64,000 bases of DNA from an uncultured Gammaproteobacteria bacterium (GCA_964540825.1 CAZINT010000002.1:128993-192992); one strand, 5' to 3'. Positions 4,769-43,320 are shown, counted from the first letter of the stretch. The notes: generated from the letters alone by a model not told the origin. Program-made: numbers and translations.

Positions 4769-4842
4769 CGGGCTATAGCGCAGTTGGCTAGCGCGCATCG
4801 TTCGGGACGATGAGGTCGTGGGTTCAAGTCCCACTAGCCCGA
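4769..4842 (+). tRNA. tRNA-Pro (anticodon CGG)
   Basis: The hand-folded cloverleaf has acceptor CGGGCTA/TAGCCCG, D-stem GCGC/GCGC, anticodon stem CATCG/CGATG with loop TTCGGGA (U33, CGG, G37) and T-arm GTGGG-TTCAAGT-CCCAC. It is 74 nt long. Confidence 0.9.
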
Positions 4843-4854
4843 CAATAACAAAAA

Positions 4855-16484: not shown

Positions 16485-16514
16485 TAAAAAACGACCTCAA
16501 TGGTCGTTTTTTTG
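16485..16514. terminator. Bidirectional rho-independent terminator: A-run – ACGACC–TCAAT–GGTCGT – T6
   Basis: The hairpin and flanking runs were read from the sequence. It lies between the convergent rpmA (+) and epimerase (−) genes. Confidence 0.6.
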
Positions 16515-16550: not shown

Positions 16551-17465
16551 CTATAGTAAGCGGGCATCTTTTTTTAACTGCGCAACACCTTCAGCTAGCT
16601 TAATGGTTGGTTTCCAGCCAAGCAAACGCTCCGCTTTAGCGTTATCCGCATGAGTGTATGGCATTTCACCAGCCAGTGCCGGCACAAAGATGGTGTCTCC
16701 GCCAATAAGTGCAGCTAATTCATTAACTGAGTGAGGGTCACCATTACCAACATTTATTACCTCCCCTTTTCCTACCGTATCCTTGGTCATCGCCAGTATG
16801 TTAGCTCTAACGATATCACTCACATGCGTGTAGTCGCGAGACATTTCTCCGTCTCCTCTAATCGTAAGCGGCTTGCCTTCCTGACGCAATTTTATAAACC
16901 GACCAATAACAAGCGCATATGCCCCTTCGGGGTCAAAATACGGCCCATACACATTAAAATAGCACAGAGCGACAGTTTCAAGACCATACAGCTCAGAAAA
17001 AACACGACAATATTCTTCGCCAATGAGTTTATGCAGTGCGTATGGACTCAAAGGCTTTTTAATTGACCCGTCTTCTTTAAACGGCCCCGGGGGCTGAATA
17101 CCATAGGCTGCAGAAGAAGTAGCAAACACTACGCGCTTCACTCCAGTATCGCGCGCAGCGATAAGCACGTTCAATGTACCGTTAACATTAACATCATGTG
17201 TCTCAAGCGGATTTTCGACGGAAAAAACTACCCGGGGCAGAGCCGCTAAATGGAAAATACCCTCGACCCCTACACAGGCTTTTTTAAGCTGTGCCAAGTC
17301 ACGAATGTCACCGGTAATATATTCAGCACCGGGTAAAATCCGGTCGGCTTTTTTACCACCGGCATAATTATCATACACTTTGACTGTGTTTCCTGCCTCA
17401 AGCAGGGCTTTCACTAAATTTGTTCCAATAAATCCCGCACCGCCGGTTACAAGATAGGTCGACAT
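16551..17465 (-). CDS. NAD-dependent nucleotide-sugar epimerase/dehydratase (SDR; UDP-hexose 4-epimerase-like)
   Basis: The likely start is MSTYLVTGGAGFIGTNL (the track ORF extends to 17522). Catalytic YxxxK is SPYALHK. Confidence 0.8.
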   Translation of the reverse strand: MSTYLVTGGAGFIGTNLVKALLEAGNTVKVYDNYAGGKKADRILPGAEYITGDIRDLAQLKKACVGVEGIFHLAALPRVVFSVENPLETHDVNVNGTLNVLIAARDTGVKRVVFATSSAAYGIQPPGPFKEDGSIKKPLSPYALHKLIGEEYCRVFSELYGLETVALCYFNVYGPYFDPEGAYALVIGRFIKLRQEGKPLTIRGDGEMSRDYTHVSDIVRANILAMTKDTVGKGEVINVGNGDPHSVNELAALIGGDTIFVPALAGEMPYTHADNAKAERLLGWKPTIKLAEGVAQLKKDARLL

Positions 17466-17475
17466 AGTAGTTGCA

Positions 17476-18894
17476 TTATTTTTTTCCGCTAATAAAAGGT
17501 GACCCCACCATAATAAGATCAAAACCTTGTTCTTGCAAACTTTCGGCTTGGCTTACGAGCATACGCCGGCCATCCATAATTAAGTATGGTGACCGCACCG
17601 TTTCTGTAAAGACTGCTGCAAGCCCCTTAAATTGAATCCAATCCGTGCAAATAATTGCGGCATCAGTACCGGTAACAGCCTCTTTTTCCGAACCCGCGTA
17701 TGTAAGTCTAGTATAGAGCTCATTCCTGTCAGTTCTGAAGTATTTTTTGCACTCTTCCATAGCAGCCGGATCGTAGATTTTTATTTCAGCAACACCGGCA
17801 CCCAATAATTGCTGAATAATTCCGATTGCTCCGGAATTACGAATATCATTTGTGTCGTATTTAAAAGCTACACCCAAAAGAGCAACTTTTTTACCAGACC
17901 ATTCAAAATGCGCCTCGGTTTCTGCCCGGCCAAAAAAGTGGTCACGCTGAAATACGTTAGCCTCAAGCGTCGATCGAACGAGGTTAGCGTGTGTTCCCGC
18001 CTGTTCCAGTTGGTGTGCCAAGGAGCCAGCGTCTTTAATAAAGCAACTACCGCCACAATACAGACTATCATAAAGGCCCCATTTACCAATACGCGGATCA
18101 GCAACGATAATTTTCCGAACCTGTTCATAGGCAACATTTGGGAAATATTCACAAGTGCGCCCTATTACATCGTAGGTTGTAACAACCTTATTGAACAAAA
18201 TATAGTTAGCCAACAGTTTGGAACAGGCCGCTTCGTAGGGATTTACTTCAAAATAACTTATTCCGGCAGCGTCATAAAAGCGACGATACACCTGACGCAT
18301 TACTTCAAAATCTTCTTTGCTATGAGCGCCCACTACGACCCGGTCTGGGTGGATCGAATCCTGAATCGCCCTGCCTTCTACTAAAAATTCAGGATTTGAT
18401 ACAATACCAAAATTTTTCACCCCTTGATGCGTAAAAAGATCGTTAGTGTAATCAATCATTCTAATAGGCACGGTGCTCTTGTTTACCACTACTAAATGGC
18501 GGGTCTGCGCTCCTCCGTCCCGCGCAGCAAGCAAGGGACCGATCATGGACACCGCACTCTCATAATAGGATAAATCAGACTCACCCGCTGCCCCTTCTTT
18601 TTCTGGGGTTGGCAGACACATGAAGACTGCGTCAGCAGTTTCGATAAATGCCGCTAGCTGTTGAAGATCAGTTGTAAAACCAATACGCTCACGATTACGA
18701 ATAAGCAGTTCTGCTAAACCCTGTTCATGCAGTGCGGACTGAATAGTATTCGGGTCATTGCTGGATAATTTGGCAATTTTTTGTTCGTCAATATCAAAGA
18801 CCAAAACAGTATGGCCTGAGTCGGCCGATACAGCTGCGGAACAAGCGCCTACGAAACCACCACCGATATACAGAATTTTCATACCACCTAACAA
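17476..18894 (-). CDS. Nucleotide-sugar dehydrogenase (UDP-glucose 6-dehydrogenase family)
   Basis: The start is TTG in the track, and the likely true start is MKILYIGGGFVG. The catalytic-Cys motif is GGSCFIKD. The length is 472 aa. Confidence 0.85.
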   Translation of the reverse strand: MLGGMKILYIGGGFVGACSAAVSADSGHTVLVFDIDEQKIAKLSSNDPNTIQSALHEQGLAELLIRNRERIGFTTDLQQLAAFIETADAVFMCLPTPEKEGAAGESDLSYYESAVSMIGPLLAARDGGAQTRHLVVVNKSTVPIRMIDYTNDLFTHQGVKNFGIVSNPEFLVEGRAIQDSIHPDRVVVGAHSKEDFEVMRQVYRRFYDAAGISYFEVNPYEAACSKLLANYILFNKVVTTYDVIGRTCEYFPNVAYEQVRKIIVADPRIGKWGLYDSLYCGGSCFIKDAGSLAHQLEQAGTHANLVRSTLEANVFQRDHFFGRAETEAHFEWSGKKVALLGVAFKYDTNDIRNSGAIGIIQQLLGAGVAEIKIYDPAAMEECKKYFRTDRNELYTRLTYAGSEKEAVTGTDAAIICTDWIQFKGLAAVFTETVRSPYLIMDGRRMLVSQAESLQEQGFDLIMVGSPFISGKK

Positions 18895-18920: not shown

Positions 18921-20714
18921 TTAAAGATTTTCTTTAATATGCAGCATTCTATAAAAATAGGATTCTTTTGCCTCAGCTAAAATTTTAGGAGAACCTTGCT
19001 CGACAATTTTTCCACCTTCGAGGACCACCACTTTATCCGCAGCCATAACGGTTGAAAGACGGTGGGCAATTGCAATGATAGTTGTTTTTCCCCGAAGTTT
19101 TTGAATGCTTTCGTCAATATAGGATTCTGACTCTGAATCGAGCGCGCTCGTTGCTTCGTCTAAGATTAAAATTTGAGGCTGCAGTAAAAATATTCTAGCG
19201 AGAACAATGCGCTGACGTTGACCCACAGATAAAAACACCCCCCTGTCCCCGATCACAGTGTCAAATTTTTCAGGCAGACCCATAATCACCTCATAAACAG
19301 ACGCTGCTTTTGCCGCCTCTTCTAACGCTTCATCGGTAATTTTTTGATTATAAAAAGTAATATTATTCCTAATTGAATCGTTTAAAAGAAATGGCTCCTG
19401 AGCAACATACCCAATATTATGTCGCCACTCTTCCAATTTTATTTGATCAATAGGCACACCGTCGAGTGCGATCTCGCCTGCTTGTGGAGTATATAATTGA
19501 AGCAATAAATCAGCAAGGGTGGTTTTTCCTCCTCCCGACGGACCTACCAGTCCAATCATTTCACCCTTTTTAATACTAAGGTCAACAGCTTTGAGCACGG
19601 TTTTTTCGGGGCGATAATTAAAACTAAGTTTTTTGAACAAGATTATTTCTTTAAAGGAAAAAGGCGCTGTTCCAGCATGAAGTTCCTGAGCTTCTGAAAC
19701 TTTTGCTCGGTATTCTTCAACAGCGACCAGATACGGAAGTGTTTCGTTGATCTGGTATATTTGTCCTTGCAAAGTCTGAATACTACCAAATACTTTGTTA
19801 ATGGCGTAGACAACTACCGCAAACGAAGCAAAATGAAAATTATTTGTCTTATAAAAAAAGGCAAAAATTCCTAAAATAAAAATAATACCTATTGGTTGCA
19901 AGACAACCGTAGTGGCGTTTTTGAACCAGGCAATACGTATACTCAAGCTACGAATGACATCAAAGTACTTATATACCCGCGTGGTAAATGCTGGCTCAAC
20001 TGCCATAGCCTTAATTGTTTTCATACCCCACATGCCTTGCCCTACCTGATGAGCAATATTTTTATAGAGCTTGTTGACTTCTCGCGCCCCTAAACGATTG
20101 CGGTAAAATAAAGGGTTGAATATTGCTAATAACCCTAATCCAAAAACAAATGTCAGGACGGCAATAATTAGAGATATATTTACGACCAATAAAGAATAGA
20201 TAAGAAGGCTTGTAAATAGCGTGGTACTATTTACTAAAAAACCAATCAACGAGGAGGCACGATTAACATCTGCAGTTAATACCTGCTCAATATGACCACC
20301 TTTCTGCTCTATTAAAAAGGGCCAAGAAGCTTTAAACGTCTTCTGGAGGATCTCGGTTCGTATCTTTTGTTCATAACTAAAGATATAGTTTGCGGAATAA
20401 TACATTACTCCCATAAGTATAAGACCCTTGATAATAAAAATACAAACAATCGCAACGAGAATGCTGGTGATTGAAAATGGTACATGAAAAAACAAAAACC
20501 ACGATTTAATGGAGCTAGAAACAACATCAGTTCCTCCATTTTGCTCATCAAGCAAAGAAAATAAAGGAATAATGGCATTGATACCAAGCCCTTCTAAGAA
20601 GCTACTAATCAGACTGAATATAAATAAGCCAAACATAGGCCATTTATAGCCAGGGAAAGCTTTTCGTAAAAAGGCTACTGTTGTAAAAAATTTCTTATTA
20701 ATAGTGTTTTGCAT
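18921..20714 (-). CDS. ABC transporter, fused permease/ATPase (MsbA-like exporter)
   Basis: The N-terminal half has 6 TM helices. Walker A is GPSGGGKTT, the signature is LSVGQRQRIVLAR, and Walker B is ILILDEATSALD. Confidence 0.85.
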   Translation of the reverse strand: MQNTINKKFFTTVAFLRKAFPGYKWPMFGLFIFSLISSFLEGLGINAIIPLFSLLDEQNGGTDVVSSSIKSWFLFFHVPFSITSILVAIVCIFIIKGLILMGVMYYSANYIFSYEQKIRTEILQKTFKASWPFLIEQKGGHIEQVLTADVNRASSLIGFLVNSTTLFTSLLIYSLLVVNISLIIAVLTFVFGLGLLAIFNPLFYRNRLGAREVNKLYKNIAHQVGQGMWGMKTIKAMAVEPAFTTRVYKYFDVIRSLSIRIAWFKNATTVVLQPIGIIFILGIFAFFYKTNNFHFASFAVVVYAINKVFGSIQTLQGQIYQINETLPYLVAVEEYRAKVSEAQELHAGTAPFSFKEIILFKKLSFNYRPEKTVLKAVDLSIKKGEMIGLVGPSGGGKTTLADLLLQLYTPQAGEIALDGVPIDQIKLEEWRHNIGYVAQEPFLLNDSIRNNITFYNQKITDEALEEAAKAASVYEVIMGLPEKFDTVIGDRGVFLSVGQRQRIVLARIFLLQPQILILDEATSALDSESESYIDESIQKLRGKTTIIAIAHRLSTVMAADKVVVLEGGKIVEQGSPKILAEAKESYFYRMLHIKENL

Positions 20715-20755
20715 TGTACTGGTAATTAAATGAAAGCGATAACAAGCGTGTTACG

Positions 20756-22270
20756 CTACTTCTCTAAACCAGCCTTTTCCGCCAGTAAATGAGTTAGCAG
20801 CGCAAGCTCTTGCGCACGGGCCGGGTCATTTAAGTTCATACCGCCTTCAACATCCCAAATCGTCGCCAAATTAACATCGACGCTGTCTTTATATATCGCA
20901 GTCAAGTACTGTAACAGCGCTTCATCATTATGAGCTGGTTTAGTTAACTGTTCGCTAACAAGCTGCGGCAAGCATGAAACAACTTCACACTTACGGACTC
21001 CGGGCAACTTATTAAAAAACACATCACCAAAAATAATCACGGGTTTTTGAAGTAAGAGTGCCTCCCAACCAACCGTGCTGGTTATAACAGTAACCAGCGC
21101 CGCTTTTGTAGTTAGATCGAAACTCATAACGTTCGGCTTAACAAGCCTGACATTAGGAATTTTTTTGAGTTCCCGGTAAAAACGGAGCGGCCGTTTACCG
21201 TACATAGCTGGATGCTCCTTAATATACAGCTTAAAATCAATAGGCAGTGAACGAGCAAATTGCTTGGCAACCCAGATTTGATCCATAAAATATGGCGCAT
21301 ACAACGAAGTCGAAATCTCTGGTTCTACCTGTAGCGGGAAAAAAGCAAAGTTGTGATTAAGATCAATATCATTATAGATGTCCCCGTACCCCACCAGCAT
21401 ACGTAGTTTTTGCTGTACCTTATCTAATAAAAAATACCACGGTTTGATGGTTGTATAATCATTCTGATAATTGCCTGTAAAATAATCATGCGTCATTTTT
21501 ACTATCCAGCGCAAGGATTTAAGAGCATTCCATGGTAACAGAAACTTTAATTGGCGATTGCGGGTAACCGGTCGATTTTTTGGCGAAACAGTTGAAGTAT
21601 ACGGTGCTGGATGACGTCTAAATTCATCTAAAAACGCTTCGGCCAAACTACGCTCCTTGGGAAAAGAGAGTTCGCCTTTCTTGATTTTTTCGTACAGCGC
21701 ATCAATCGAGGTAAGTGTTCTAAAATCTTCAGAAATAGAATAGCGATTCTTTACACGCGTTAAATTGATGATATGTATTTTAATACCCTTGGCCTTGGCT
21801 ATGGTGTTAAGCAGATAACTCGCCAAACCTCCGACGACTGAAAAAACAATACCGTCGGGCCGCTCTGTTTCCAAAAAAGACAAAACCTCTTTGGCAGTCA
21901 CTTGGAGTATGCGCAACATTTCTTCATGCGTATACTTTGGCGTGTCATACGGATAGTCTCGAACAAGCTGGTTATAACGGATCACTCGATCAAGTTCGAT
22001 GTGCTGCCACAGATATGGCACACCATACTCTTGTTCCAATTGCTTTAAAAATACTAGATCTAGTGGTTCGTTTTTATAACGACTATTAACTTCTTCTTCT
22101 AGAACAAGCTTGGTATAAGAAACTTCAGTTTGCCGCAACAAATAATCATAGCCTGTTCGAAGTTCTACAAAACCACAAAATTCTACATTTTTGTATGCAT
22201 TTTGAAGCTGTTTCGCCATGGTGTGACCAATGTAGGCAAAACGACGTTGAAGATAGAAACAAAGTTTCAT
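20756..22270 (-). CDS. Capsule polysaccharide biosynthesis protein, KpsC/KpsS (beta-Kdo transferase) family-like
   Basis: 504 aa. The C-terminal region FFPLQVEPEIS ... YIKEHPAMYGKRP resembles the Capsule_synth family K-x-HP motif. The assignment comes from motif memory only. Confidence 0.5.
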   Translation of the reverse strand: MKLCFYLQRRFAYIGHTMAKQLQNAYKNVEFCGFVELRTGYDYLLRQTEVSYTKLVLEEEVNSRYKNEPLDLVFLKQLEQEYGVPYLWQHIELDRVIRYNQLVRDYPYDTPKYTHEEMLRILQVTAKEVLSFLETERPDGIVFSVVGGLASYLLNTIAKAKGIKIHIINLTRVKNRYSISEDFRTLTSIDALYEKIKKGELSFPKERSLAEAFLDEFRRHPAPYTSTVSPKNRPVTRNRQLKFLLPWNALKSLRWIVKMTHDYFTGNYQNDYTTIKPWYFLLDKVQQKLRMLVGYGDIYNDIDLNHNFAFFPLQVEPEISTSLYAPYFMDQIWVAKQFARSLPIDFKLYIKEHPAMYGKRPLRFYRELKKIPNVRLVKPNVMSFDLTTKAALVTVITSTVGWEALLLQKPVIIFGDVFFNKLPGVRKCEVVSCLPQLVSEQLTKPAHNDEALLQYLTAIYKDSVDVNLATIWDVEGGMNLNDPARAQELALLTHLLAEKAGLEK

Positions 22271-22361
22271 AAGGACTTAAGGATTTTCAACAAAACACCT
22301 TGTTTAAAAGTCTTAGTATAAGCCAAATTACCAGGTTTAGCCTCCCTTCTAAATCTCTCAA

Positions 22362-22390
22362 AGTATACTTGAATAAGCTAAAAAACTCAA
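22362..22390 (-). promoter_or_regulatory. Candidate promoter (minus strand) TTGAGT–17 nt–TATACT upstream of the KpsS-like/ABC/dehydrogenase operon
   Basis: Read on the reverse complement of the 186-bp intergenic region 22271–22456. Confidence 0.3.
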
Positions 22391-22456
22391 GTTTTGGGCC
22401 CTTGATTGAGAAAGTCCGCTTTCAAATTAGAATTATTTTTTAATTGTATTATTTCT

Positions 22457-23632
22457 TTAGGACTCCCACGCGTCCTCTAAATCCAAAAATTGTTTTTGTA
22501 ACTTAGTGCTCCAAAAACGCTTGTCGGAGATAATTTCAAAAAACTTCTCAGCGCTATCCCCTTCTCCAAAATAACTTACTGTGGGCACTCTTCTCTTTTT
22601 TACTTTTTGTATCGCAGCGAGTATTTCTTTTTTATTTACGTCAACATGCAAAATGCTTTTATTTTTACTGCGATTTTTCTGTCGAGTACCGATATTTACC
22701 GTTGGAATACCATAGACTTCGGCCTCACGAATTCCACTGCTTGAATTACCAATAACGTAGGTCGCGTGTTTGAGCAATGTCAAAAAGTGCTCAAAACGAA
22801 CTGAAGGGAAAATTTTAAACTTTTTATGACCTTCAAGTTTTTTATACTCCATCAAAATTATATCACTCCCCAGGTCATTATTCGGAAAAATAACTACATA
22901 ATTATGACCAGATTCTTTAAGCGCTGTCACCACTTCCTTTATCTGATGCGCCAAGCTATCCACTTCTGTTACAACTGGATGAAAAATAAAAATAGCGTGT
23001 TCATCAAATGGAATGTTATAACGTTTTTTACTCTCAGCGAGCGAAGGAAGTGTGTCCGACTTCATAATATCAATATCCGGCGAACCAATCGTAAAGATAT
23101 CATTGCTTGATTCGCCCATTTGAACCAAACGACGTTTTGCCTCACTATTTGCGACAAAATGAAGGTGCGCAAGCTTGGAAATAGCATGACGAATAACTTC
23201 ATCTACCGTGCCTGAAAGCTCTCCCCCTTCAATATGGGCGACTAAAATATTATTTAGCGTGCCCACAATCGCTCCCGCTAAAGGTTCGACGCGGTCGCCG
23301 TGCACCACAATCATATCTGGTTTAATTTTTTTGACGTAGGTACTAAACTTTTTAATTGTCGTTGCCAAAATGAGGTCCATATCAGCTGCCCCCTCAATCT
23401 GATTAGCTGTCTTGTAAACATTTTTATACCCTTGGAGCAAAACCTCATTATACGTAGAGCCATACTTTTCAAGCATATGCATGCCTGTCACAAATACAAA
23501 GCACTCAAAATCACTTGATTCGTCAACAATTTTAATAAGTCGCTTTATTTTTCCAAAATCAGCTCTTGTTCCGGTTAAAAAAACTATTTTTTTCTTAGTC
23601 TGCATAGAGTAATTAATGAACCACTGAACCAA
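22457..23632 (-). CDS. neuC: UDP-N-acetylglucosamine 2-epimerase (hydrolysing), NeuC-like
   Basis: The likely start is MQTKKKIVFLTGTRADFGK at 23605. The motifs HGDRVE and HIEGGE are typical of hydrolysing 2-epimerases. Confidence 0.75.
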   Translation of the reverse strand: MVQWFINYSMQTKKKIVFLTGTRADFGKIKRLIKIVDESSDFECFVFVTGMHMLEKYGSTYNEVLLQGYKNVYKTANQIEGAADMDLILATTIKKFSTYVKKIKPDMIVVHGDRVEPLAGAIVGTLNNILVAHIEGGELSGTVDEVIRHAISKLAHLHFVANSEAKRRLVQMGESSNDIFTIGSPDIDIMKSDTLPSLAESKKRYNIPFDEHAIFIFHPVVTEVDSLAHQIKEVVTALKESGHNYVVIFPNNDLGSDIILMEYKKLEGHKKFKIFPSVRFEHFLTLLKHATYVIGNSSSGIREAEVYGIPTVNIGTRQKNRSKNKSILHVDVNKKEILAAIQKVKKRRVPTVSYFGEGDSAEKFFEIISDKRFWSTKLQKQFLDLEDAWES

Positions 23633-24311
23633 AAAGCTGCTCGGCTAATGTAAAATCGGCCAAAGTATCAATATCGATCGCTTCTTTGAAATCAGTTACG
23701 ACAAAAGGGTACATTTTTTTGCCAAACCCTTTTCCTTTTTGAAGCAAATTTGTCTTGACCAAAAAAACCGTTCCACACTCCCGATAGAGGTCCTTCATAT
23801 CCTGGCGTCTGGTAGCACCAACTACATACTTCGGTTCGTATATCCCCTTACGGATTGTTCCCATTTTTCCTTCTACTCGAAAAAGTGGTACGAGCGAATC
23901 GTAAGAATCAAAATTTTTGCGAAAAGCAGCAACCGCCCGATCAATTGTGGCAACCGTACGAAGCGGCGACGTTGCTTGTAAAATTAAAATTGCGTCAGGC
24001 ACTTTGTCTTCTGTTTTAAGCTGCTCAACAGCGTGTTTAAGAGCATCCATTACCGACGAGCTATCTCCGGCCAACGATTTTGGCCTGGTAACAACCGTTG
24101 CTCCATATTTTTTAGCAACAGCGCTAATTTCTTTGTCTTCTGTTGAAACCACCACCCAATCGATTCGCTGAGCTGCTTTAGCCTGCTCGATCGTCCAGGC
24201 AATCAGCGGTTTACCCGCAAAATCTTTTACATTCTTACGCGGTAAACCTTTAGAACCACCCCGTGCGGGTATAAAAGCCAAAATTTTCTTATGATCCATT
24301 TTTTGTGCCAT
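23613..24311 (-). CDS. neuA: Acylneuraminate (nonulosonate) cytidylyltransferase, CMP-NulO synthetase
   Basis: KILAFIPARGGSKGLPRKN is the CMP-sugar synthetase P-loop-like motif. The length is 232 aa. Confidence 0.8.
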   Translation of the reverse strand: MAQKMDHKKILAFIPARGGSKGLPRKNVKDFAGKPLIAWTIEQAKAAQRIDWVVVSTEDKEISAVAKKYGATVVTRPKSLAGDSSSVMDALKHAVEQLKTEDKVPDAILILQATSPLRTVATIDRAVAAFRKNFDSYDSLVPLFRVEGKMGTIRKGIYEPKYVVGATRRQDMKDLYRECGTVFLVKTNLLQKGKGFGKKMYPFVVTDFKEAIDIDTLADFTLAEQLFGSVVH

Positions 24312-24535: not shown

Positions 24536-25426
24536 TTGGTTTGTATGTCTTCGTCCAAGATCGACATCTGTGCTGGTTTCAACCTGTTTCTTGAACACAT
24601 TTTGCCCTATACCGCCACAGTCGAAAAAGGACGCATGCCTTCAGCGCCGCTACTCAACTTGGGTGGCGGAGCTTGGAATATCCTTAAATCACTCAGTGAG
24701 ATCGATCCGGCGCTCAAGCTTCACCTCCTGGCGTTCTCCGCTCAAAACGATGTCCGTGAAGGAACTTTAAAAAAACTTCTTCAAAAACATGCGATCCCGG
24801 TAACACTCCTTTCTTGCAAGCCACGACTCATGAGCTCGTATTACCTTGCACCCGTCGCAGGTCCTCTATGGTCCTTTGGCGATAACGGAGGCACTATCAA
24901 TAACCTGGATGCTTTGGAGCCGAAAATTAACGCTTTTGCAAAAAGGACTGCGATTCGTATTGTGGCCGAAATAAGCTCAGAAGCAAAAGAGGTGCGGGCG
25001 GCTAAGGCACTATTTAAAAAAGAAAATGCTGAGCAAATTAATGTCCTTATCCCCTCTTTAGATTTGCTTAAAAATAAAAAACTAGGCGGTTTACATCCCG
25101 ATATCCTCGTGGTTAACCAAGCGGAAGCTCAAGCGCTATTTCAAAAAGAACCCACCCAGCAAGACGTGCTCGTTTTTTCAGTTCCGACGATCCTTGTTAC
25201 GCGCGGCAGTGGTCCAGCCTGGTTAAAGCATGCGGGTCATATATATACCTTGCAGCCTAAAGCGAGCAAAGCTCCCTACACTAACGGGGCTGGCGATGCT
25301 GCGACCGCCGGCTTACTCTACGCTCTAGTCTATAAAGAAAAAAAACCGCAAGAAGCGCTGGCTTTTGCTCTTGAAATAGCCCGAAAAACCTTACTTATTC
25401 CTACTCCGTATTATGTCAAACGGTAA
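24536..25426 (+). CDS. PfkB/ribokinase-family carbohydrate kinase
   Basis: The track start is TTG and the first ATG is at 24545 (MSSSKIDI). The C-terminal PfkB signature is NGAGDAATAGLLYAL. The 3' end overlaps the next gene by 14 nt. Confidence 0.75.
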   Translation: MVCMSSSKIDICAGFNLFLEHILPYTATVEKGRMPSAPLLNLGGGAWNILKSLSEIDPALKLHLLAFSAQNDVREGTLKKLLQKHAIPVTLLSCKPRLMSSYYLAPVAGPLWSFGDNGGTINNLDALEPKINAFAKRTAIRIVAEISSEAKEVRAAKALFKKENAEQINVLIPSLDLLKNKKLGGLHPDILVVNQAEAQALFQKEPTQQDVLVFSVPTILVTRGSGPAWLKHAGHIYTLQPKASKAPYTNGAGDAATAGLLYALVYKEKKPQEALAFALEIARKTLLIPTPYYVKR

Positions 25427-26108
25427 AACACTCGCTGTTGTTGATTTTGATAATACGCTTTTTAAAACCAAAGAATTTTGGCGGGAGTGTTTATTTCCAG
25501 CATATGAAAAACTGGGAATGTCACGCGAAACCCTGGAAGAAGCTTTTAAGGAAGCCACCGCGCTCAAGGCGGATTATTTTGTAATTGATAATTTTATCGA
25601 TTCTCTGGCCGACCGTGTCAGCATGCCCCAAGAAAAATTACTTGTTGTCTTTAAAGAAACTGTTTTTTCAGAAAAAGTAAAAGATTTTTTTTATCCGAGC
25701 AGTACAGAACTACTCGCAGCAATTAAAAAAGCTTATGATACTATGCTTTTGGTAAGCTATGGAGACAAGGCTTTTAAAGAGGAATTTTTTAAGTGCTGCG
25801 ATCTCGAAACATATTTTGACCCTCAAGAAATGATTATTACCAACGAGCCAAAGGTTCGCTTATTGCCTCGCTTCGCAGCATACACCCACATCACGTACAT
25901 TAACGATGTCTTCAAAGAAACCGAGGATCTGCTGCGCGAAACTAAAGCGATGGGCATTGTTACAGACGCCTACCTCGTTGACCATAAAAATAGTCTAGGT
26001 GAAGTAAATACTTCTGAGATCAAAAAATATCGGACGCTCAATGACTTAGCCTATGATGTAAGACTAAAGATAGAATCCACAGAACACACACCTGAAAATA
26101 AAATGTGA
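25413..26108 (+). CDS. HAD-superfamily phosphatase
   Basis: VVDFDNTLF is the DxDxT motif I. The length is 231 aa, consistent with a cap domain. Confidence 0.7.
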   Translation: MSNGKTLAVVDFDNTLFKTKEFWRECLFPAYEKLGMSRETLEEAFKEATALKADYFVIDNFIDSLADRVSMPQEKLLVVFKETVFSEKVKDFFYPSSTELLAAIKKAYDTMLLVSYGDKAFKEEFFKCCDLETYFDPQEMIITNEPKVRLLPRFAAYTHITYINDVFKETEDLLRETKAMGIVTDAYLVDHKNSLGEVNTSEIKKYRTLNDLAYDVRLKIESTEHTPENKM

Positions 26109-35611: not shown

Positions 35612-36175
35612 CTAGCGCGAGAGCTTGTACCCGAGATGAGGAAGGGAGCGGGTGGTCGCCGCGACCGAGAAGGTCTCGGTGGTCTCGCCGCCGAGGACGC
35701 GACCCAGCCAGTCTTCGAGCGGTATGCTGACGACCTCGATCTCGACCTCCTCGCTGTCGGGGGTGGGCTCACCCTCGAGCACGCACTCAAGTGCGAGGTA
35801 GAGCTGGACCCGTCCGCTCGAGTGTCGCGGGATGATGTCGACGTGTCCGAGGTCGATGAGCTGCCCCGCACGGTGGCCGGTCTCCTCCCTGACCTCGCGC
35901 CGCGCCGCCTCGTTGAGCGACTCTCCATCGTTGCAGTAGCCGCCCACGAGGCCGATCTGGATGCGGTCTGCACCCTGCTTGTACTCGCGTACGGCGAGCA
36001 CATTTAGATCGACAGTCACCGGCAGGACAACTACCGAATCCTGCAAGGTGTAGAGATAGAAATCATGCACCTTTCCGAACGGGTCCTCGAAGTCCTGGTG
36101 CACGATCTGCTTGCCATAGTGGCGCGGGCCTATGGGAACTGCTTCACCTACTTTTTTCCACCGTCGTACTGCCAT
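35612..36175 (-). CDS. NUDIX hydrolase with high-GC codon usage
   Basis: The Nudix box reads GGYCNDGESLNEAARREVREETG. The length is 187 aa. The GC content and GC3 are markedly higher than in neighbouring genes. Long antisense ORFs here are GC artefacts. Confidence 0.8.
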   Translation of the reverse strand: MAVRRWKKVGEAVPIGPRHYGKQIVHQDFEDPFGKVHDFYLYTLQDSVVVLPVTVDLNVLAVREYKQGADRIQIGLVGGYCNDGESLNEAARREVREETGHRAGQLIDLGHVDIIPRHSSGRVQLYLALECVLEGEPTPDSEEVEIEVVSIPLEDWLGRVLGGETTETFSVAATTRSLPHLGYKLSR

Positions 36176-36222
36176 AACGATCCTCCATACAATTCGTTTA
36201 GGGGGAAACAGCTGAGCATATC

Positions 36223-36250
36223 AAAAAACCTGCTTTTTGTCAAGCAGGTT
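36223..36250 (-). terminator. Rho-independent terminator for SDR gene 36282..37274: ACCTGCTT–TTTGTC–AAGCAGGT, with T6 on the minus strand
   Basis: An 8-bp perfect stem. An A-run lies on the plus strand upstream, which is a T-run on the minus strand downstream. Confidence 0.55.
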
Positions 36251-36281
36251 AGCTGAATATATGGACTTTAAAATTCAAAAA

Positions 36282-37274
36282 TTATTTTTTTGGATGAGCC
36301 AGATACCATTCATACGTACGCCGCAAACCCTCTTCCAGAGATACTTCAGGCTTCCAGCCTACAAGCGACTGCAATTTACTTACGTCAGCCAAACGGCGTT
36401 TTACACTACCCTCAGGCGAATTTTCAATAACAATTTTTTCTGGCCGCCAGCCAATAATATCAAATAACCGGTCAGCCAGATCGCGAATTTTTATTTCATC
36501 AAAAGCACCAATATGCACCGTCTCAACCGGTAACGTATCTGTCTTTGGTGAATCCATCAAAACCTGCATAGCCCGAACCACATCATCGATATAACAGAAC
36601 GTTCGTGTATCATCGGCGCCAAAAATGGTAAACGGATCAGTCTTGGCCGCAGCTCTGAGACAAAACTCTGGAATAACGTGTTCGTAGCCTGCCCGTGGAC
36701 CATAAAAATTATGAGGGCGAACAATCACTGCGCGAAATTTATACTGAGCAGCATAATGAATTACAAACGGCTCCCCTACCAGCTTGCTAGCGTCATACGA
36801 AGCACGGGGGTTATAGGGGTCAGCAATGACGAGCGGTACTTTTTCCGGGGTTGGAATGGGCAGCACTCCAAAGGCTTCTAGCGCGCCTGCATACACTTCA
36901 CTCGAAGAAGTGAAGCAAAATTTGCCATCTGCACTTTCTTGCCTAAACCATTCGAGCATGTAAATCAGCGTCAGCGTGTTAATACGCAACGTCTCGTGGG
37001 GCATGGTATAAAAAAACTTGGTACCGTTCACTGCCGCTAAATGATAAACGTGATCATACCCACCACCAAATTCTTTATATGAAACAGGATTTGTTAAATC
37101 GAGATTTAAAAAGCGCACCCGCGGATCTTTGAGTACGGCCGACAAATCATCATCCATTACCCCTCGCTGCAAATTATCTGCTAAAACCAATTCTACCGCA
37201 GGATCTTGCAATAAATGCTTTGCCAAATGATGTCCGATAAAGCCAGCTCCGCCGGTAATAAGAACTTTTTTCAT
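36282..37274 (-). CDS. NAD-dependent nucleotide-sugar epimerase/dehydratase (SDR)
   Basis: MKKVLITGGAGFIGHHL. YxxxK reads YDASK. The length is 330 aa. Confidence 0.8.
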   Translation of the reverse strand: MKKVLITGGAGFIGHHLAKHLLQDPAVELVLADNLQRGVMDDDLSAVLKDPRVRFLNLDLTNPVSYKEFGGGYDHVYHLAAVNGTKFFYTMPHETLRINTLTLIYMLEWFRQESADGKFCFTSSSEVYAGALEAFGVLPIPTPEKVPLVIADPYNPRASYDASKLVGEPFVIHYAAQYKFRAVIVRPHNFYGPRAGYEHVIPEFCLRAAAKTDPFTIFGADDTRTFCYIDDVVRAMQVLMDSPKTDTLPVETVHIGAFDEIKIRDLADRLFDIIGWRPEKIVIENSPEGSVKRRLADVSKLQSLVGWKPEVSLEEGLRRTYEWYLAHPKK

Positions 37275-40001: not shown

Positions 40002-40003
40002 TT

Positions 40004-41538: not shown

Positions 41539-43320
41539 TTATTCCTCTACCTGATAAATAGCCAATTGACCATCGTCAAAAACCTTGTGCTTAAAAAAAC
41601 GGTCGAGCTGCCACTGTGGATCCAATTTTTTATCCCATACCGCATAGGTTATGCGGTATTTTTTTAAGTTTGTAAGTAAAGGGGCTTCTACAAACTCTTG
41701 ATACTCATTGATAAAGGTCTGATCCAATTCTGGCGGATAGCACTCGTAACAACCATTTTTAGCACGATAATAATTTCCAAAAATAAAACGACTGACATTC
41801 CTCCGATTAAGAGGATCAGAAAAATAATTCTTTGCCTCGCTGCTCGGAATGCCGTCTAGATACATATAGGTATAGAATGCTTCTCGAAGTCGCTCAGCTG
41901 CTACCAGATTTTCGCCGGCATACCCATTATAGTAAGCGTTTGCGGGCGTATATACCACCACAAGGGATGAAAAAACATCCGAAGAAAATACCGCATCATC
42001 CTTATTGGTATTTTGGCCGAGCCACTCGATAGCCCCGGCATAGCGCTGCCAGGCAACAAATTGGTCCTTTTGAACGCTGTACGACCAACGCTGGAATACT
42101 ATAGCGACAACTAAAAACAAAATACAGGCAAGGGCGGTGGCTACGGACAACCAACGCTCCGAAATTTTTTTAGATACCTGAGTAAAAAGTATGTACGTAA
42201 AAAGTAAACCCGCTAGTGGCGCCATATAATACCAATGGTAATGCGCTGGAATCGGCAAGGTTCGACCGGTAATGATTTGTTGATTAGAGACTATAAAAAT
42301 AGCTCCTAAAAAAGTCGTCATGAAAATACCAAACGTGTCAAAACGTCGGTATGCCAGCAGGAAGAGCACAAGTGCACCGCACCACACCAAGCTAATTACC
42401 GGGTCGTGGGTCACGACCTGCCCCGCCCTGACTACCAATTCAGGATAATAGGGCGAAGCGATTAATTTGAACGTATTAATAAAATAAGGAATGCCTATGA
42501 TAAGTCCACCTATGGTAATTAACGTAATGATCTTCAATTCTTTAAATCTGCGGCGCACTAAAAAATAAACCCATACCGCACCATTCATGACGAACAGAAG
42601 CGTGAAGGAAAAAACGTATGTATAAAAAGTTAGTCCTAAAAAAAGTGCAGCCAGGGCTCCGATACCCCATTTTTTTCGGGACTCCCAGGTTTCGAAGCGG
42701 GTAAGAACTGTAAAGAGCGCTACGAGATAGGCAAAAAAAACAAGATTACTTACTTGAGGGTTAATAGGTCGACCATACAATAAAAACTCTGCATCATTAG
42801 CTACAAAAACGCCGTGTCTTAGGAGGGGCAGCCAGGTATGCGGGTTGAGGAGCGCAGTGGTCGCCGGTGATAATAAAACAAAACAGGCTCCAATGAGCGA
42901 GACATCCTTACGCTTGGTCAGGAGAAGACCAAGGGCGTACACTAAAAAAAAGATGGTAAAGGGAAAAACAAATTTTGCCGCCAAATTAACATCTGGGACT
43001 GATAAACCCAGCAGCTTGCCTAGTCCCGCAGTAATAACAGCGGGGAGTGGTTGTTTGAGGTATGGCTGATCCTTGCCCTCATACATGTATACGTTGCCAA
43101 AAGAAAAATCCCCATTATACACCGCATGGATCTGCGCCAGATAGCTTGCCTCTCCATCAGTTCCCAGAAAGTCTATCCCTTTAAACGACGGATCAAACCT
43201 GAAAATAACACTAGGCACAGCGATGATAAACGCGCACAAAAACGCAAGCACAATAGCAAAGACATGCGCTTTGACCAGTACTCGGCACCTGAGCACACCC
43301 TCTTTAAGAGATACTGCCAT
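41539..43320 (-). CDS. Large polytopic membrane protein, hypothetical (possible GT-C-like polymerase or transferase)
   Basis: 593 aa with about 12 hydrophobic helices and a C-terminal soluble domain of about 150 aa. No confident motif was found. It lies adjacent to a polyprenol-P GT2. Confidence 0.4.
   Translation of the reverse strand: MAVSLKEGVLRCRVLVKAHVFAIVLAFLCAFIIAVPSVIFRFDPSFKGIDFLGTDGEASYLAQIHAVYNGDFSFGNVYMYEGKDQPYLKQPLPAVITAGLGKLLGLSVPDVNLAAKFVFPFTIFFLVYALGLLLTKRKDVSLIGACFVLLSPATTALLNPHTWLPLLRHGVFVANDAEFLLYGRPINPQVSNLVFFAYLVALFTVLTRFETWESRKKWGIGALAALFLGLTFYTYVFSFTLLFVMNGAVWVYFLVRRRFKELKIITLITIGGLIIGIPYFINTFKLIASPYYPELVVRAGQVVTHDPVISLVWCGALVLFLLAYRRFDTFGIFMTTFLGAIFIVSNQQIITGRTLPIPAHYHWYYMAPLAGLLFTYILFTQVSKKISERWLSVATALACILFLVVAIVFQRWSYSVQKDQFVAWQRYAGAIEWLGQNTNKDDAVFSSDVFSSLVVVYTPANAYYNGYAGENLVAAERLREAFYTYMYLDGIPSSEAKNYFSDPLNRRNVSRFIFGNYYRAKNGCYECYPPELDQTFINEYQEFVEAPLLTNLKKYRITYAVWDKKLDPQWQLDRFFKHKVFDDGQLAIYQVEE

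What the first reader, a model, noticed from the sequence alone, without database searches (positions are those of the whole stretch)
18921..24311. KpsC/KpsS-like capsule protein with MsbA-like ABC exporter adjacent to CMP-nonulosonate synthesis; a candidate nonulosonate/Kdo-type transferase and ABC-dependent export
A Capsule_synth-like protein (20756–22270) lies between the NeuC–NeuA genes and a fused ABC exporter (18921–20714). In Gram-negative capsule systems this family comprises retaining beta-Kdo transferases that use CMP-beta-Kdo, which is chemically close to CMP-nonulosonates. Here it may transfer the NeuA product onto a lipid or glycan acceptor that the adjacent ABC transporter then exports. 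This arrangement would be notable in a presumably monoderm, CPR-like organism.
Basis: partly seen in the sequence, partly recalled or inferred. Interest (0 to 1): 0.55.

Follow-up and report, generated by a model that had tools for sequence, protein, structure and literature searches.

The report
Candidate nonulosonic-acid transferase with ABC exporter
A gene in an ultra-small (CPR/Patescibacteria) bacterium most likely encodes a distant relative of the Acinetobacter pseudaminic-acid transferase KpsS1, which would attach a sialic-acid-like sugar to a surface glycan that a neighbouring ABC pump moves across the membrane; the enzyme type is known, but it has not been described in these organisms.

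Summary
On the minus strand, neuA, neuC, a 504-aa PF05159 protein, an ABCB-type exporter, a sugar dehydrogenase and an epimerase form one tight array.

The closest characterised relative is not KpsC/KpsS (beta-Kdo transferases, GT107). It is the A. baumannii KpsS1-type pseudaminyltransferase (GT118): hhalign probability 99.4% over 338 columns, against 78-96 columns for KpsC/KpsS.

- **Catalytic motif:** the family lacks the QXXXD motif that defines beta-Kdo transferases. It has P-L-[H/Q]-x-x-P-E plus K-[E/D]-H, as the KpsS1-type protein does.
- **Link to sugar synthesis:** 33 of 38 fully flanked relatives have neuA, neuB or neuC within 10 kb. So do an archaeal and a large-genome bacterial relative, and the Acinetobacter, Klebsiella and Mariluticola homologues.
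- **Link to export:** orthologues of the exporter lie in nonulosonate loci in 7 of 8 cases. In other loci a Wzx flippase takes the exporter's place, and the two never occur together.

Most likely, the enzyme caps a lipid-linked glycan with a nonulosonate and the ABC protein flips it. This is a new, distant member of a known enzyme kind, widespread in Patescibacteria. It lacks the general base proposed for KpsS1 and is probably paired with a Neu/Leg-type donor. No activity was tested.

The parts
20756..22270 (-). 504-aa soluble GT-B-like protein, a distant GT118 (KpsS1-type) relative and the candidate CMP-nonulosonate transferase. Motifs: P312-L-Q314-V-E-P317-E318, K351-E-H353-P, R360, Y365, E403, K409-P410, D94-R95, E79.
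18921..20714 (-). ABCB-type half-transporter (transmembrane domain plus nucleotide-binding domain). Candidate flippase or exporter of the nonulosonate-bearing lipid-linked glycan.
   Evidence: Pfam and NCBIfam hits. About 5-6 hydrophobic segments. ATPase motifs intact. Orthologues lie in nonulosonate loci in 7 of 8 look-ups and next to PF05159 genes in 5 of 8. Never found together with Wzx in 80 related loci.
22457..23605 (-). NeuC-type hydrolysing UDP-GlcNAc (or diacetamido-sugar) 2-epimerase.
   Evidence: TIGR03568 417.7 bits, above the 235.9 cut-off. Equally similar to the human GNE epimerase domain and to A. baumannii LegG-type enzymes.
23613..24311 (-). CMP-nonulosonate synthetase (NeuA/LegF/PseF-like cytidylyltransferase).
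   Evidence: CTP_transf_3 E 2.8e-28. PseF model 147.8 bits, below its cut-off; KdsB models much weaker.
26156..27160 (+). NeuB-family nonulosonate synthase, divergently transcribed.
   Evidence: PF03102 E 1.1e-65. NeuB_NnaB model 298.5 bits against PseI 230.1, both below cut-off. Closest solved structure is N. meningitidis NeuB at 198.7 bits, against PseI at 142.8.
24536..26108 (+). PfkB-family sugar kinase (24536-25426) and HAD_2 phosphatase (25413-26108), immediately upstream of neuB.
   Evidence: Pfam hits. No PDB relatives. Among 81 loci, found only in the copy of this same genome.
17476..18882 (-). Nucleotide-sugar 6-dehydrogenase, co-directional and downstream of the ABC gene.
   Evidence: UDPG_MGDP_dh domains and TIGR03026 264.6 bits. 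Same order in the syntenic locus L083.
16551..17465 (-). SDR epimerase (TviC/GalE-like), the last gene of the array.
   Evidence: Pfam Epimerase E 2.2e-58; TviC model 178.5 bits, below cut-off.
16486..16512 (-). Terminator-like hairpin (11 pairs plus a T run), just after the epimerase gene.
   Evidence: The overall count of such sites is not above the shuffled expectation, so only its position is suggestive.
31832..37274 (.). Conserved partner module: GT4 glycosyltransferase (31832-33028, -), C-methyltransferase (33109-34362, +), DegT aminotransferase (34295-35497, +) and SDR (36282-37274, -).
   Evidence: Homologues at 34-61% identity occur in 53-92% of fully flanked related loci.
41539..43320 (-). 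593-aa membrane protein with about 10 hydrophobic segments and no Pfam match. Possible polymerase or GT-C-like partner.
   Evidence: The homologous cluster is present in 27 of 38 fully flanked loci.
61588..63645 (-). Wzy_C (O-antigen-ligase/PglL-like) membrane protein with C-terminal TPR repeats. Candidate enzyme that transfers the flipped glycan to its final acceptor.
   Evidence: PF04932 E 8.2e-20 plus TPR. Homologous Wzy_C-TPR genes lie 1-4 genes downstream of ABC-PF05159 in L084 and L086.

Best explanation
The 504-aa protein is a cytoplasmic CMP-nonulosonate-dependent glycosyltransferase of the KpsS1 (GT118)-like branch of the PF05159 superfamily.

Proposed pathway:
1. NeuC, NeuB and NeuA make a CMP-activated nine-carbon acid. 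It is probably of the Neu5Ac or legionaminic type, because a NeuC-type 2-epimerase is used.
2. The transferase binds the CMP-sugar in its C-terminal Rossmann domain. H353 of the K-E-H-P motif acts on the CMP phosphate. E318 of the [H/Q]xxPE motif sits where the beta-Kdo enzymes have their Asp nucleophile.
3. The transferase adds the sugar to a lipid-linked oligosaccharide. That oligosaccharide is built at the inner face of the membrane by the many GT2/GT4 enzymes of the surrounding 55-kb island.
4. The adjacent ABCB-type half-transporter flips or exports the finished lipid-linked glycan, as PglK does. Related loci use a Wzx flippase instead.
5. A Wzy_C/TPR ligase-like protein or a GT-C enzyme then attaches the glycan to a surface acceptor.

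What is shown: homology, motifs, fold and gene association. What is inferred: the donor, the acceptor, the stereochemistry (retaining double displacement by analogy with KpsS1/KpsC) and the transported substrate.
For: - **Shared signature:** P-E, K-x-H, Y, N, E and K-P-G are invariant across CPR type-1 and type-2, Micrarchaeota, Acinetobacter, Klebsiella and Mariluticola proteins.
- **Topology:** E318 aligns with the KpsC nucleophile Asp, and H353 with the HP histidine. The E318-H353 spacing is 35 residues, against 34 in KpsC-N.
- **Association with sugar synthesis:** 33 of 38 fully flanked CPR loci have neuA/B/C within 10 kb, at a median distance of 3.2 kb. The same holds for an archaeal and a 5.9-Mb-genome relative and for the Acinetobacter, Klebsiella and Mariluticola loci.
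- **Export:** ABC orthologues lie in nonulosonate loci in 7 of 8 look-ups and next to PF05159 genes in 5 of 8. Among the 80 related loci plus this genome's own copy, ABC occurs in 15 and Wzx in 16, and the two never coincide. Each sits directly beside the transferase gene in most of those loci.
- **Precedent:** KpsS1 is a proven retaining pseudaminyltransferase, and PF05159 genes next to nonulosonate modules were already assigned this role (PMC12887879; PMC4487303).
Against: - No biochemical data exist for any member of the CPR branch.
- The Glu proposed as general base in KpsS1 (Glu132, YE motif) aligns with Ser144 here, so the catalytic constellation is not identical.
- The donor sugars differ. 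KpsS1 uses CMP-alpha-Pse, whereas this locus has a NeuC/NeuB route. PMC12887879 argues that retaining Kdo-like enzymes may not easily accept sugars with an equatorial C5 substituent.
- The gene is just as consistently linked to a GT4/C-methyltransferase/DegT/SDR module, so association alone does not single out the nonulosonate as the donor.
- Five of 38 fully flanked loci show no neuA/B/C within 10 kb.
- The ABC protein matches no curated flippase model above its cut-off.
Confidence: 0.6

Rival explanations
1. The protein builds a nonulosonate oligomer or polymer, or a nonulosonate-lipid anchor. This would be analogous to KpsS/KpsC making the poly-Kdo glycolipid terminus. The ABC transporter would then export a complete polymer by an ABC-transporter-dependent route, not a capped repeat unit.
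For: - The fold is closest to KpsC.
- Some relatives have two paralogues flanking or following the ABC gene, reminiscent of the KpsS plus KpsC pair.
- The gene is directly adjacent and co-directional with an ABC exporter.
Against: - Wzx flippases, which handle short lipid-linked units, replace the ABC gene at the same position in 16 loci.
- The window has only one paralogue.
- The island encodes more than 12 other glycosyltransferases and a Wzy_C ligase-like protein, which fits a heteroglycan.
- The closest characterised relative, KpsS1, adds a single side-branch residue.
Confidence: 0.17
2. The protein is a nonulosonate transferase but works by inversion. E318 or E316 would act as general base on the acceptor, giving alpha-linked Neu/Leg glycosides from CMP-beta donors. 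There would be no covalent glutamyl intermediate.
For: - The locus has a NeuC/NeuB route, whose products are normally alpha-linked by inversion (established knowledge).
- The Asp nucleophile of QXXXD is replaced by Glu, and the Gln is often His.
- The proposed KpsS1 base is absent.
- PMC12887879 doubts that retaining Kdo-like enzymes can adapt to sialic-acid-type donors.
Against: - The KpsS1-type protein has the same HxxPE motif, and KpsS1 is reported to be retaining.
- Invariant acidic residues also exist in the N-terminal domain: E79, and [D/E]94 followed by R95. A two-step mechanism would need such residues.
Confidence: 0.15
3. The protein is a true beta-Kdo transferase (GT107/GT99-like), or it uses a non-CMP donor or is a UDP-sugar 2-epimerase-like enzyme. 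In that case its position next to neuA/neuC and the ABC gene is only a by-product of glycan genes clustering together.
For: - PF05159 was defined on KpsC/KpsS.
- Foldseek ranked UDP-GlcNAc 2-epimerases first by E-value.
- Three homologues carry a precomputed Epimerase_2 hit.
- There are weak tblastn hits to Bacillus proteins annotated as CDP-glycerol glycerophosphotransferases.
Against: - The QXXXD motif is absent in 183 of 184 and 125 of 126 family members.
- No KdsA- or KdsB-type genes were found; the cytidylyltransferase scores far better on PseF than on KdsB models.
- There is no PF04464 or PF02350 hit for this protein.
- The Bacillus protein itself sits near a NeuB-family gene.
- The association with nonulosonate genes holds across CPR, archaea and Proteobacteria.
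Confidence: 0.06

Closest known systems
KpsS1 of Acinetobacter baumannii (GT118), a retaining Pse5Ac7Ac pseudaminyltransferase, together with KpsS2-5 and Gtr59-type PF05159 proteins of Gram-negative K and O loci
   Same: - Homology is significant over most of the protein: hhalign 99.4% over 338 columns, and blastp 37% identity over residues 308-425.
- The catalytic-domain signature is the same: P-[LI]-H/Q-x-x-P-E, K-[DE]-H, Y, N, E and K-P-G.
- The size is similar (465-504 aa).
- The gene lies beside a CMP-nonulosonate synthesis module and a flippase. Compare wzx-kpsS-wzy in Acinetobacter with Wzx or ABC next to the gene in CPR.
   Different: - Identity is only about 22-27% outside the CMP-binding half.
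- The YE motif (Glu132, the proposed general base of KpsS1) is replaced by Ser, Thr or Pro.
- The host is a Patescibacteria lineage, presumed monoderm.
- The local sugar pathway is of the NeuC/NeuB type, not PseB/C/H/G/I.
- Here the gene is coupled to an ABCB-type exporter.
- The identity of the A. baumannii ORF as KpsS1 itself was inferred from locus structure and the Glu132/YE numbering. It was not checked against the published sequence.
KpsC and KpsS (GT107) and WbbB (GT99), the retaining beta-Kdo transferases of group 2 capsules and O-antigen termination
   Same: - PF05159 hit.
- An HP-type histidine after the second strand of the C-terminal Rossmann domain, and an acidic residue at the nucleophile position after the first strand.
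- A CMP-activated 2-keto-3-deoxy acid as the presumed donor.
- An ABC exporter in the same pathway.
   Different: - The invariant QXXXD motif is replaced by [H/Q]xxPE.
- Sequence similarity is limited to 78-96 columns.
- There are about 180 extra residues.
- No Kdo synthesis genes are present.
- The exporter is a fused ABCB-type half-transporter, not KpsM/KpsT.
Tannerella forsythia Tanf_01245 / BFO_1060 family Pse/Leg-derivative transferases, and PglK-type ABC flippases of lipid-linked oligosaccharides
   Same: - A weak NCBIfam hit to the BFO_1060 family over the HP region (27.3 bits).
- Genetic evidence that such HP-motif GT-B proteins add the terminal nonulosonate to a protein-linked glycan (PMC5420450).
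- The ABC protein gives a partial match to PglK (232.4 bits).
   Different: - Both hits fall far below the curated cut-offs (200 and 1000 bits).
- The Tannerella enzymes are TagB-like.
- No flippase assay or specific signature links this ABC protein to PglK.

Membership tests
Retaining beta-Kdo transferases (GT107 KpsC/KpsS; GT99 WbbB) | Invariant QXXXD motif (Asp nucleophile, Gln binding the carboxylate) | tested here: not met
   The window protein has Q314-V-E-P-E318. Across the family, position 314 is H more often than Q, and position 318 is Glu in 183/184 and 125/126 sequences. E. coli KpsC-N, KpsC-C and KpsS have QTFND, QVEDD and QVYND. Motif definition from PMC10148158 and PMC12887879.
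Retaining beta-Kdo transferases (GT107 KpsC/KpsS; GT99 WbbB) | HP motif (His acting on the CMP phosphate) | tested here: met
   K351-E-H353-P354 aligns with KpsC V-K-V-H-P. His is present in 180/184 and 123/126 sequences.
Retaining beta-Kdo transferases (GT107 KpsC/KpsS; GT99 WbbB) | Modified GT-B fold shared by KpsC and WbbB | tested here: met
Retaining beta-Kdo transferases (GT107 KpsC/KpsS; GT99 WbbB) | CMP-Kdo as donor (a KdsA/KdsB supply) | tested here: not met
   The neighbouring genes are NeuB-, NeuC- and NeuA/PseF-like. KdsB models score 72 bits or less against cut-offs above 155.
GT118 (KpsS1-type nonulosonate transferases) | Significant sequence similarity to KpsS1 over the catalytic module | tested here: met
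   hhalign A1 against the A. baumannii KL2-like ORF: 99.4%, E 2.9e-21, 338 columns. Against the Klebsiella homologue: 99.8%, E 1.8e-28. blastp E 2e-21 and 6e-26. Caveat: the ORF was identified as KpsS1-type by locus order (psaA-F, wzx, ORF, wzy) and by YE at 131-132, not by comparison with the deposited KpsS1 sequence.
GT118 (KpsS1-type nonulosonate transferases) | Glu132 of the YE motif, proposed as general base | tested here: not met
   It aligns with Ser144 of the window protein. The position is S, T or P in CPR and differs again in the archaeal, Mariluticola and type-2 proteins.
GT118 (KpsS1-type nonulosonate transferases) | Gene adjacent to a CMP-nonulosonate synthesis module | tested here: met
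   In the window, neuC and neuA lie directly upstream and neuB lies 4 kb away. Among relatives, 33 of 38 fully flanked loci meet this.
GT118 (KpsS1-type nonulosonate transferases) | Retaining transfer of pseudaminic acid from CMP-alpha-Pse | not testable with these tools
   This needs an enzyme assay and NMR. The local pathway lacks PseB/C/G/H and has a NeuC-type epimerase, so the donor is probably not Pse.
PglK / MsbA / HepA-type ABC exporters | Score above the curated equivalog cut-off | tested here: not met
   HepA 344.6 bits (cut-off 725), MsbA 293.2 (602), PglK 232.4 (1000). The protein is a generic ABCB-type half-transporter.
CDP-glycerol glycerophosphotransferases (TagB/TagF, PF04464) | Pfam PF04464 match | tested here: not met

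The most novel reading that the evidence does not exclude
A GT118-like enzyme family has been adapted to Neu5Ac/legionaminic-type (D-glycero-D-galacto) CMP-sugars. It would use a glutamyl (E318) nucleophile, or have switched to inversion, with a general base different from that of KpsS1. On this reading, nonulosonate-capped glycans exported by a dedicated ABCB-type flippase are a general surface feature of ultra-small episymbionts (Patescibacteria and DPANN archaea), and may mediate host recognition or evasion.
Probability: 0.25. Interest if true: 0.65.

Novelty: new member of a known kind. Interest (0 to 1): 0.4.

Why it matters
Only one enzyme of this kind, KpsS1, has been characterised.

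- **Scale:** this work points to a large uncharacterised branch. There are 415 clusters (at 50% identity) with E below 1e-30 and 8034 with E up to 0.001. The branch shares KpsS1's catalytic signature but not its proposed base.
- **Pathway diversity:** the branch is paired with several different nonulosonate pathways.
- **A mechanistic test case:** these proteins could show whether the Kdo-transferase-like double-displacement mechanism can handle sialic-acid-type sugars.
- **CPR biology:** most Paceibacteria-type genomes sampled here carry the genes to decorate their surface with sialic-acid-like sugars. I found no paper in the searchable library that links these organisms with nonulosonates. 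Such glycans could matter for how the cells attach to or hide from hosts.

Tried and rejected
- **afdb50 fold search:** not available.
- **KpsS1 paper (Walklett 2024):** not held. KpsS1 features were taken second-hand from PMC12887879.
- **hhalign against single E. coli KpsC-N and KpsS sequences:** it aligned only the HP half, so the general base could not be mapped that way.
- **PDB sequence searches for the PfkB kinase and the HAD phosphatase:** no hits.
- **NeuB and NeuC comparisons:** they could not separate Neu5Ac from legionaminic acid.
- **Promoter and terminator scan:** counts were not above the shuffled expectation.
- **Rfam:** only two tRNAs found.
- **Phage collection:** one marginal hit.
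- **Rejected readings:** beta-Kdo transferase, glycerophosphotransferase, epimerase, and an ABC pump unrelated to the glycan. The reasons are given under the rival explanations.


Full report
**1. Observation**

- **20756-22270 (504 aa).** It matches Pfam PF05159 (Capsule_synth) at E 4.5e-11 and 43.2 bits, against a gathering cut-off of 20. Only residues 305-420 are matched.
- **18921-20714 (597 aa).** It is a fused permease/ATPase ABC exporter. Its best, sub-threshold NCBIfam matches are HepA, MsbA and PglK. The ATPase motifs are intact.
- **22457-23605.** It is a NeuC-type hydrolysing 2-epimerase, scoring above the curated cut-off.
- **23613-24311.** It is a CMP-nonulosonate-synthetase-like cytidylyltransferase.
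- **Downstream, same strand.** A sugar 6-dehydrogenase and a TviC-like epimerase follow. Intergenic gaps across the six genes are 7, 186, 41, 38 and 10 nt. A terminator-like hairpin lies at 16486-16512.
- **Opposite strand, divergent.** A PfkB kinase, a HAD phosphatase, NeuB and a pyruvyl transferase lie here.

**2. Organism and wider setting**

The 504-aa protein has hundreds of full-length homologues at 40-60% identity. Every one that carries a name comes from Patescibacteria (Giovannoni-, Magasanik-, Falkow-, Niyogi-, Kaiser-, Taylor-, Nomurabacteria and others), and all are annotated as hypothetical. A metagenomic contig (L083) is syntenic with the window from neuA to ftsW.

The window from about 5.4 kb to 64 kb is one large glycan island. 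It holds:
- more than 12 GT2/GT4 glycosyltransferases;
- two PMT_2 membrane transferases;
- an MBOAT acyltransferase;
- an AsnB-like amidotransferase and nucleotidyltransferases;
- a Wzy_C/TPR ligase-like protein.

That CPR cells lack an outer membrane is established knowledge and was not tested here.

**3. What the protein is**

*Motifs.* Profile searches against PDB sequences find only KpsC. They align the family's P-L-Q-x-E-P-E with KpsC's P-G-Q-V-E-S-D, and its K-E-H-P with V-K-x-H-P. The literature defines the retaining beta-Kdo transferases by two features: an invariant QXXXD motif (Asp nucleophile, Gln binding the carboxylate) and the HP motif (PMC10148158; PMC12887879). E. coli KpsC-N, KpsC-C and KpsS show QTFND, QVEDD and QVYND.

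The CPR family does not fit this definition:
- the nucleophile position is Glu in 183 of 184 sequences and always follows a Pro;
- the Gln position is His more often than Gln;
- the same pattern holds in 126 representatives of 50%-identity clusters, down to 28% identity.

The protein therefore fails a defining feature of GT107/GT99, although it shares their fold and the HP histidine.

**4. The closest characterised relative**

A tblastn search of the plasmid collection returned three Proteobacterial loci.

- **Acinetobacter baumannii.** The hit lies in a record that is really a 3.66-Mb chromosome. The gene order is gna, PseB, PseC, PseF, PseG, PseH, PseI, wzx, a 480-aa PF05159 ORF, then wzy. 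This is the arrangement of the pseudaminic-acid K loci whose PF05159 gene is called kpsS (PMC4487303; PMC9676051). The ORF has a YE motif with Glu at residue 132. That matches exactly what PMC12887879 reports for KpsS1, the founding member of GT118 and a proven retaining pseudaminyltransferase.
- **Klebsiella.** A 465-aa homologue follows pseBCFGI.
- **Mariluticola.** A 463-aa homologue follows a pse module.

| Comparison with the CPR alignment (hhalign) | Probability | Aligned columns |
|---|---|---|
| A. baumannii KpsS1-type protein | 99.4% | 338 |
| Klebsiella homologue | 99.8% | 302 |
| E. coli KpsC-N | 95.7% | 78 |
| E. coli KpsS | 89% | 96 |

These Gram-negative proteins carry the same signature: PIHFHPE or PLHYHPE, followed by VKDH. 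An alignment of CPR type-1 and type-2, Micrarchaeota, large-genome bacterial, Acinetobacter, Klebsiella and Mariluticola proteins leaves these residues invariant: P317-E318, P343, K351, H353, Y365, N373, E403, K409-P410 and G415. A [D/E]94-R95 pair in the N-terminal domain is also conserved.

There is one clear difference. The proposed general base of KpsS1 (Glu132) aligns with Ser144 here. It is not conserved outside the Acinetobacter/Klebsiella clade. E79 (123/126) and D94 (111/126) are the conserved N-domain acids that could take that role. That assignment is inference.

**5. Gene association**

I called ORFs in 80 loci from one-genome-per-species contigs and clustered them.

| Neighbour within 10 kb (38 loci with at least 8 kb on both sides) | Loci | Share |
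|---|---|---|
| neuA, neuB or neuC (any) | 33 | 87% |
| SDR epimerase/dehydratase | 35 | 92% |
| neuA | 31 | 82% |
| DegT aminotransferase | 27 | 71% |
| neuB | 24 | 63% |

The median distance to the nearest of neuA/B/C is 3.2 kb. Many of these modules look legionaminic-like. They run SDR, DegT, NeuD/PglD-type acetyltransferase, NeuC, NeuB, Gfo or PtmA-like oxidoreductase, NeuA. They are often accompanied by a WbuX/HisH/HisF acetamidino module.

Distant members keep the link. A Micrarchaeota protein (31% identity) and a protein from a 5.9-Mb bacterial contig (29% identity) both sit inside nonulosonate modules.

A caveat applies. The gene is also consistently linked to a GT4/C-methyltransferase/DegT/SDR module, which the window carries at 31832-37274. 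Association alone therefore does not prove which sugar is the donor. The CMP-type HP signature and the KpsS1 homology supply that argument.

**6. The ABC exporter**

- **Forward test.** Counting the 80 related loci and this genome's own copy, 15 carry an orthologue of the window's ABC gene, almost always directly beside a PF05159 gene. Sixteen carry a Wzx-type MOP flippase instead, 12 of them directly adjacent. No locus has both.
- **Reverse test.** Eight ABC orthologues (41-65% identity, all CPR) were looked up. Seven lie in nonulosonate loci and five directly abut one or two PF05159 genes. Two also have a Wzy_C/TPR protein a few genes downstream.
- **Second paralogue.** A subfamily of about 480 aa, 25-31% identical, with the motifs HxQPE and KEHP, lies immediately downstream of the ABC gene in six genome loci and in several metagenomic ones.

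The interchange with Wzx argues that the substrate is a lipid-linked oligosaccharide flipped across the membrane, as PglK does. It argues against an unrelated drug or peptide. No curated flippase model is matched above its cut-off, so this remains inference.

**7. Which sugar**

- NeuB is closer to N. meningitidis NeuB than to PseI.
- NeuC is equally close to the human GNE epimerase domain and to LegG-type enzymes.
- No PseB, PseC, PseG or PseH genes are present in the window.

A Neu5Ac- or legionaminic-type acid is therefore the more likely product, but the data do not decide between them. The PfkB kinase and HAD phosphatase in front of neuB might indicate a phosphorylated-intermediate route. 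They are unique to this lineage among the loci examined, and they have no solved relatives.

**8. Mechanism and rivals**

I commit to the following model (confidence 0.6). The protein is a cytoplasmic CMP-nonulosonate transferase of the KpsS1-like kind. It adds the acid to a lipid-linked glycan. The ABC protein flips that glycan, and a ligase-like enzyme transfers it to a surface acceptor. By analogy, the chemistry is a double displacement with E318 as nucleophile and H353 as acid.

The rivals are:
- a polymerase or lipid-anchor builder in a KpsS/KpsC-like, ABC-transporter-dependent pathway (0.17);
- the same transferase working by inversion (0.15). The NeuC-type pathway, and the argument in PMC12887879 about equatorial C5 substituents, make this a serious possibility;
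- a Kdo transferase, a transferase with a non-CMP donor, or an epimerase-like enzyme (0.06).

**9. Novelty**

The rule that a PF05159 gene beside a nonulosonate module encodes its transferase was published for Gram-negative K and O loci in 2014-2015. It was proven for KpsS1 in 2024 (cited). The present gene is a distant new member of that kind.

What is new:
- the family is broad. It has 415 50%-identity clusters at E 1e-30 or better and 8034 at E 0.001 or better;
- it is near-universal in the Patescibacteria glycan islands sampled here;
- it lacks the proposed KpsS1 base;
- it is probably paired with Neu/Leg-type donors;
- it has a dedicated ABCB-type exporter.

Full-text searches found no paper containing Patescibacteria together with "nonulosonic", or "candidate phyla radiation" together with "pseudaminic". 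The listed co-occurrences of Patescibacteria with "sialic acid" looked incidental. Nothing here was tested biochemically.

Noticed in passing
window 24536-26108 (+): A PfkB-family sugar kinase and a HAD_2 phosphatase sit directly upstream of neuB. This may indicate a phosphorylated-intermediate (ManNAc-6-P / nonulosonate-9-P) route like that of animals. The pair is absent from all 80 related loci and has no solved relatives.
   Followed up: partly
related loci L007, L019, L045, L053, L072, L074, L084-L086, L088: A second PF05159 paralogue (about 460-486 aa, 25-31% identical, motifs HxQPE and KEHP) lies immediately downstream of the ABC gene. The window has only the 504-aa type.
   Followed up: partly
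81 related loci: The ABC exporter (15 loci) and a Wzx-type flippase (16 loci) occupy the same position next to the transferase gene and never co-occur. This suggests they are interchangeable flipping routes.
   Followed up: yes
window 41539-43320 (-): A 593-aa protein with about 10 hydrophobic segments and no Pfam or NCBIfam match. Its homologues occur in 27 of 38 fully flanked related loci. It may be an unrecognised polymerase or GT-C enzyme.
   Followed up: partly
window 61588-63645 (-); L084 11782-14037; L086 12697-14904: A Wzy_C (O-antigen ligase/PglL-like) domain fused to TPR repeats. In two relatives it lies a few genes downstream of ABC-PF05159. It is a candidate for transferring the flipped glycan to its acceptor.
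   Followed up: partly
window 37286-38926 (-): An unusual fusion of a UDP-glucose/GDP-mannose dehydrogenase-like N-terminal part with a C-terminal SAM methyltransferase domain.
   Followed up: no
L093 8125-9567 (A. baumannii) compared with alignment: The YE/Glu132 residue proposed in the literature as KpsS1's general base is conserved only in the Acinetobacter/Klebsiella clade. A [D/E]-R pair (D94-R95 here) and E79 are conserved across the whole superfamily.
   Followed up: partly
L089 3393-4757 and 11442-12830; L095 7248-8645 (B. thuringiensis plasmid): In one CPR ABC/nonulosonate locus, two PF04464 (TagB/F-like) proteins stand where PF05159 genes usually are. A Bacillus plasmid gene annotated as a glycerophosphotransferase, weakly similar to the window protein, lies near a NeuB-family gene. 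This echoes the TagB-like nonulosonate transferases of Tannerella.
   Followed up: partly
NZ_CP077849.1 and NZ_CP104448.1 (plasmid collection): Two A. baumannii records of 3.66 and 4.09 Mb are filed as plasmids but are evidently chromosomes. Several Patescibacteria-like MAG contigs in the genome collection are titled 'uncultured Gammaproteobacteria' or 'Saccharibacteria'.
   Followed up: no
window 39024-41506 (-): An MBOAT membrane O-acyltransferase lies next to a signal-anchored protein with a weak, sub-threshold DUF1574 match. The pair is reminiscent of AlgI/AlgJ- or DltB-type glycan O-acylation systems.
   Followed up: no
window 1286-2320 (-), 2809-2883 and 4769-4843 (+): A PilB/T2SSE-type secretion ATPase and two tRNA-Pro genes (GGG and CGG anticodons) lie at the edge of the glycan island.
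   Followed up: no
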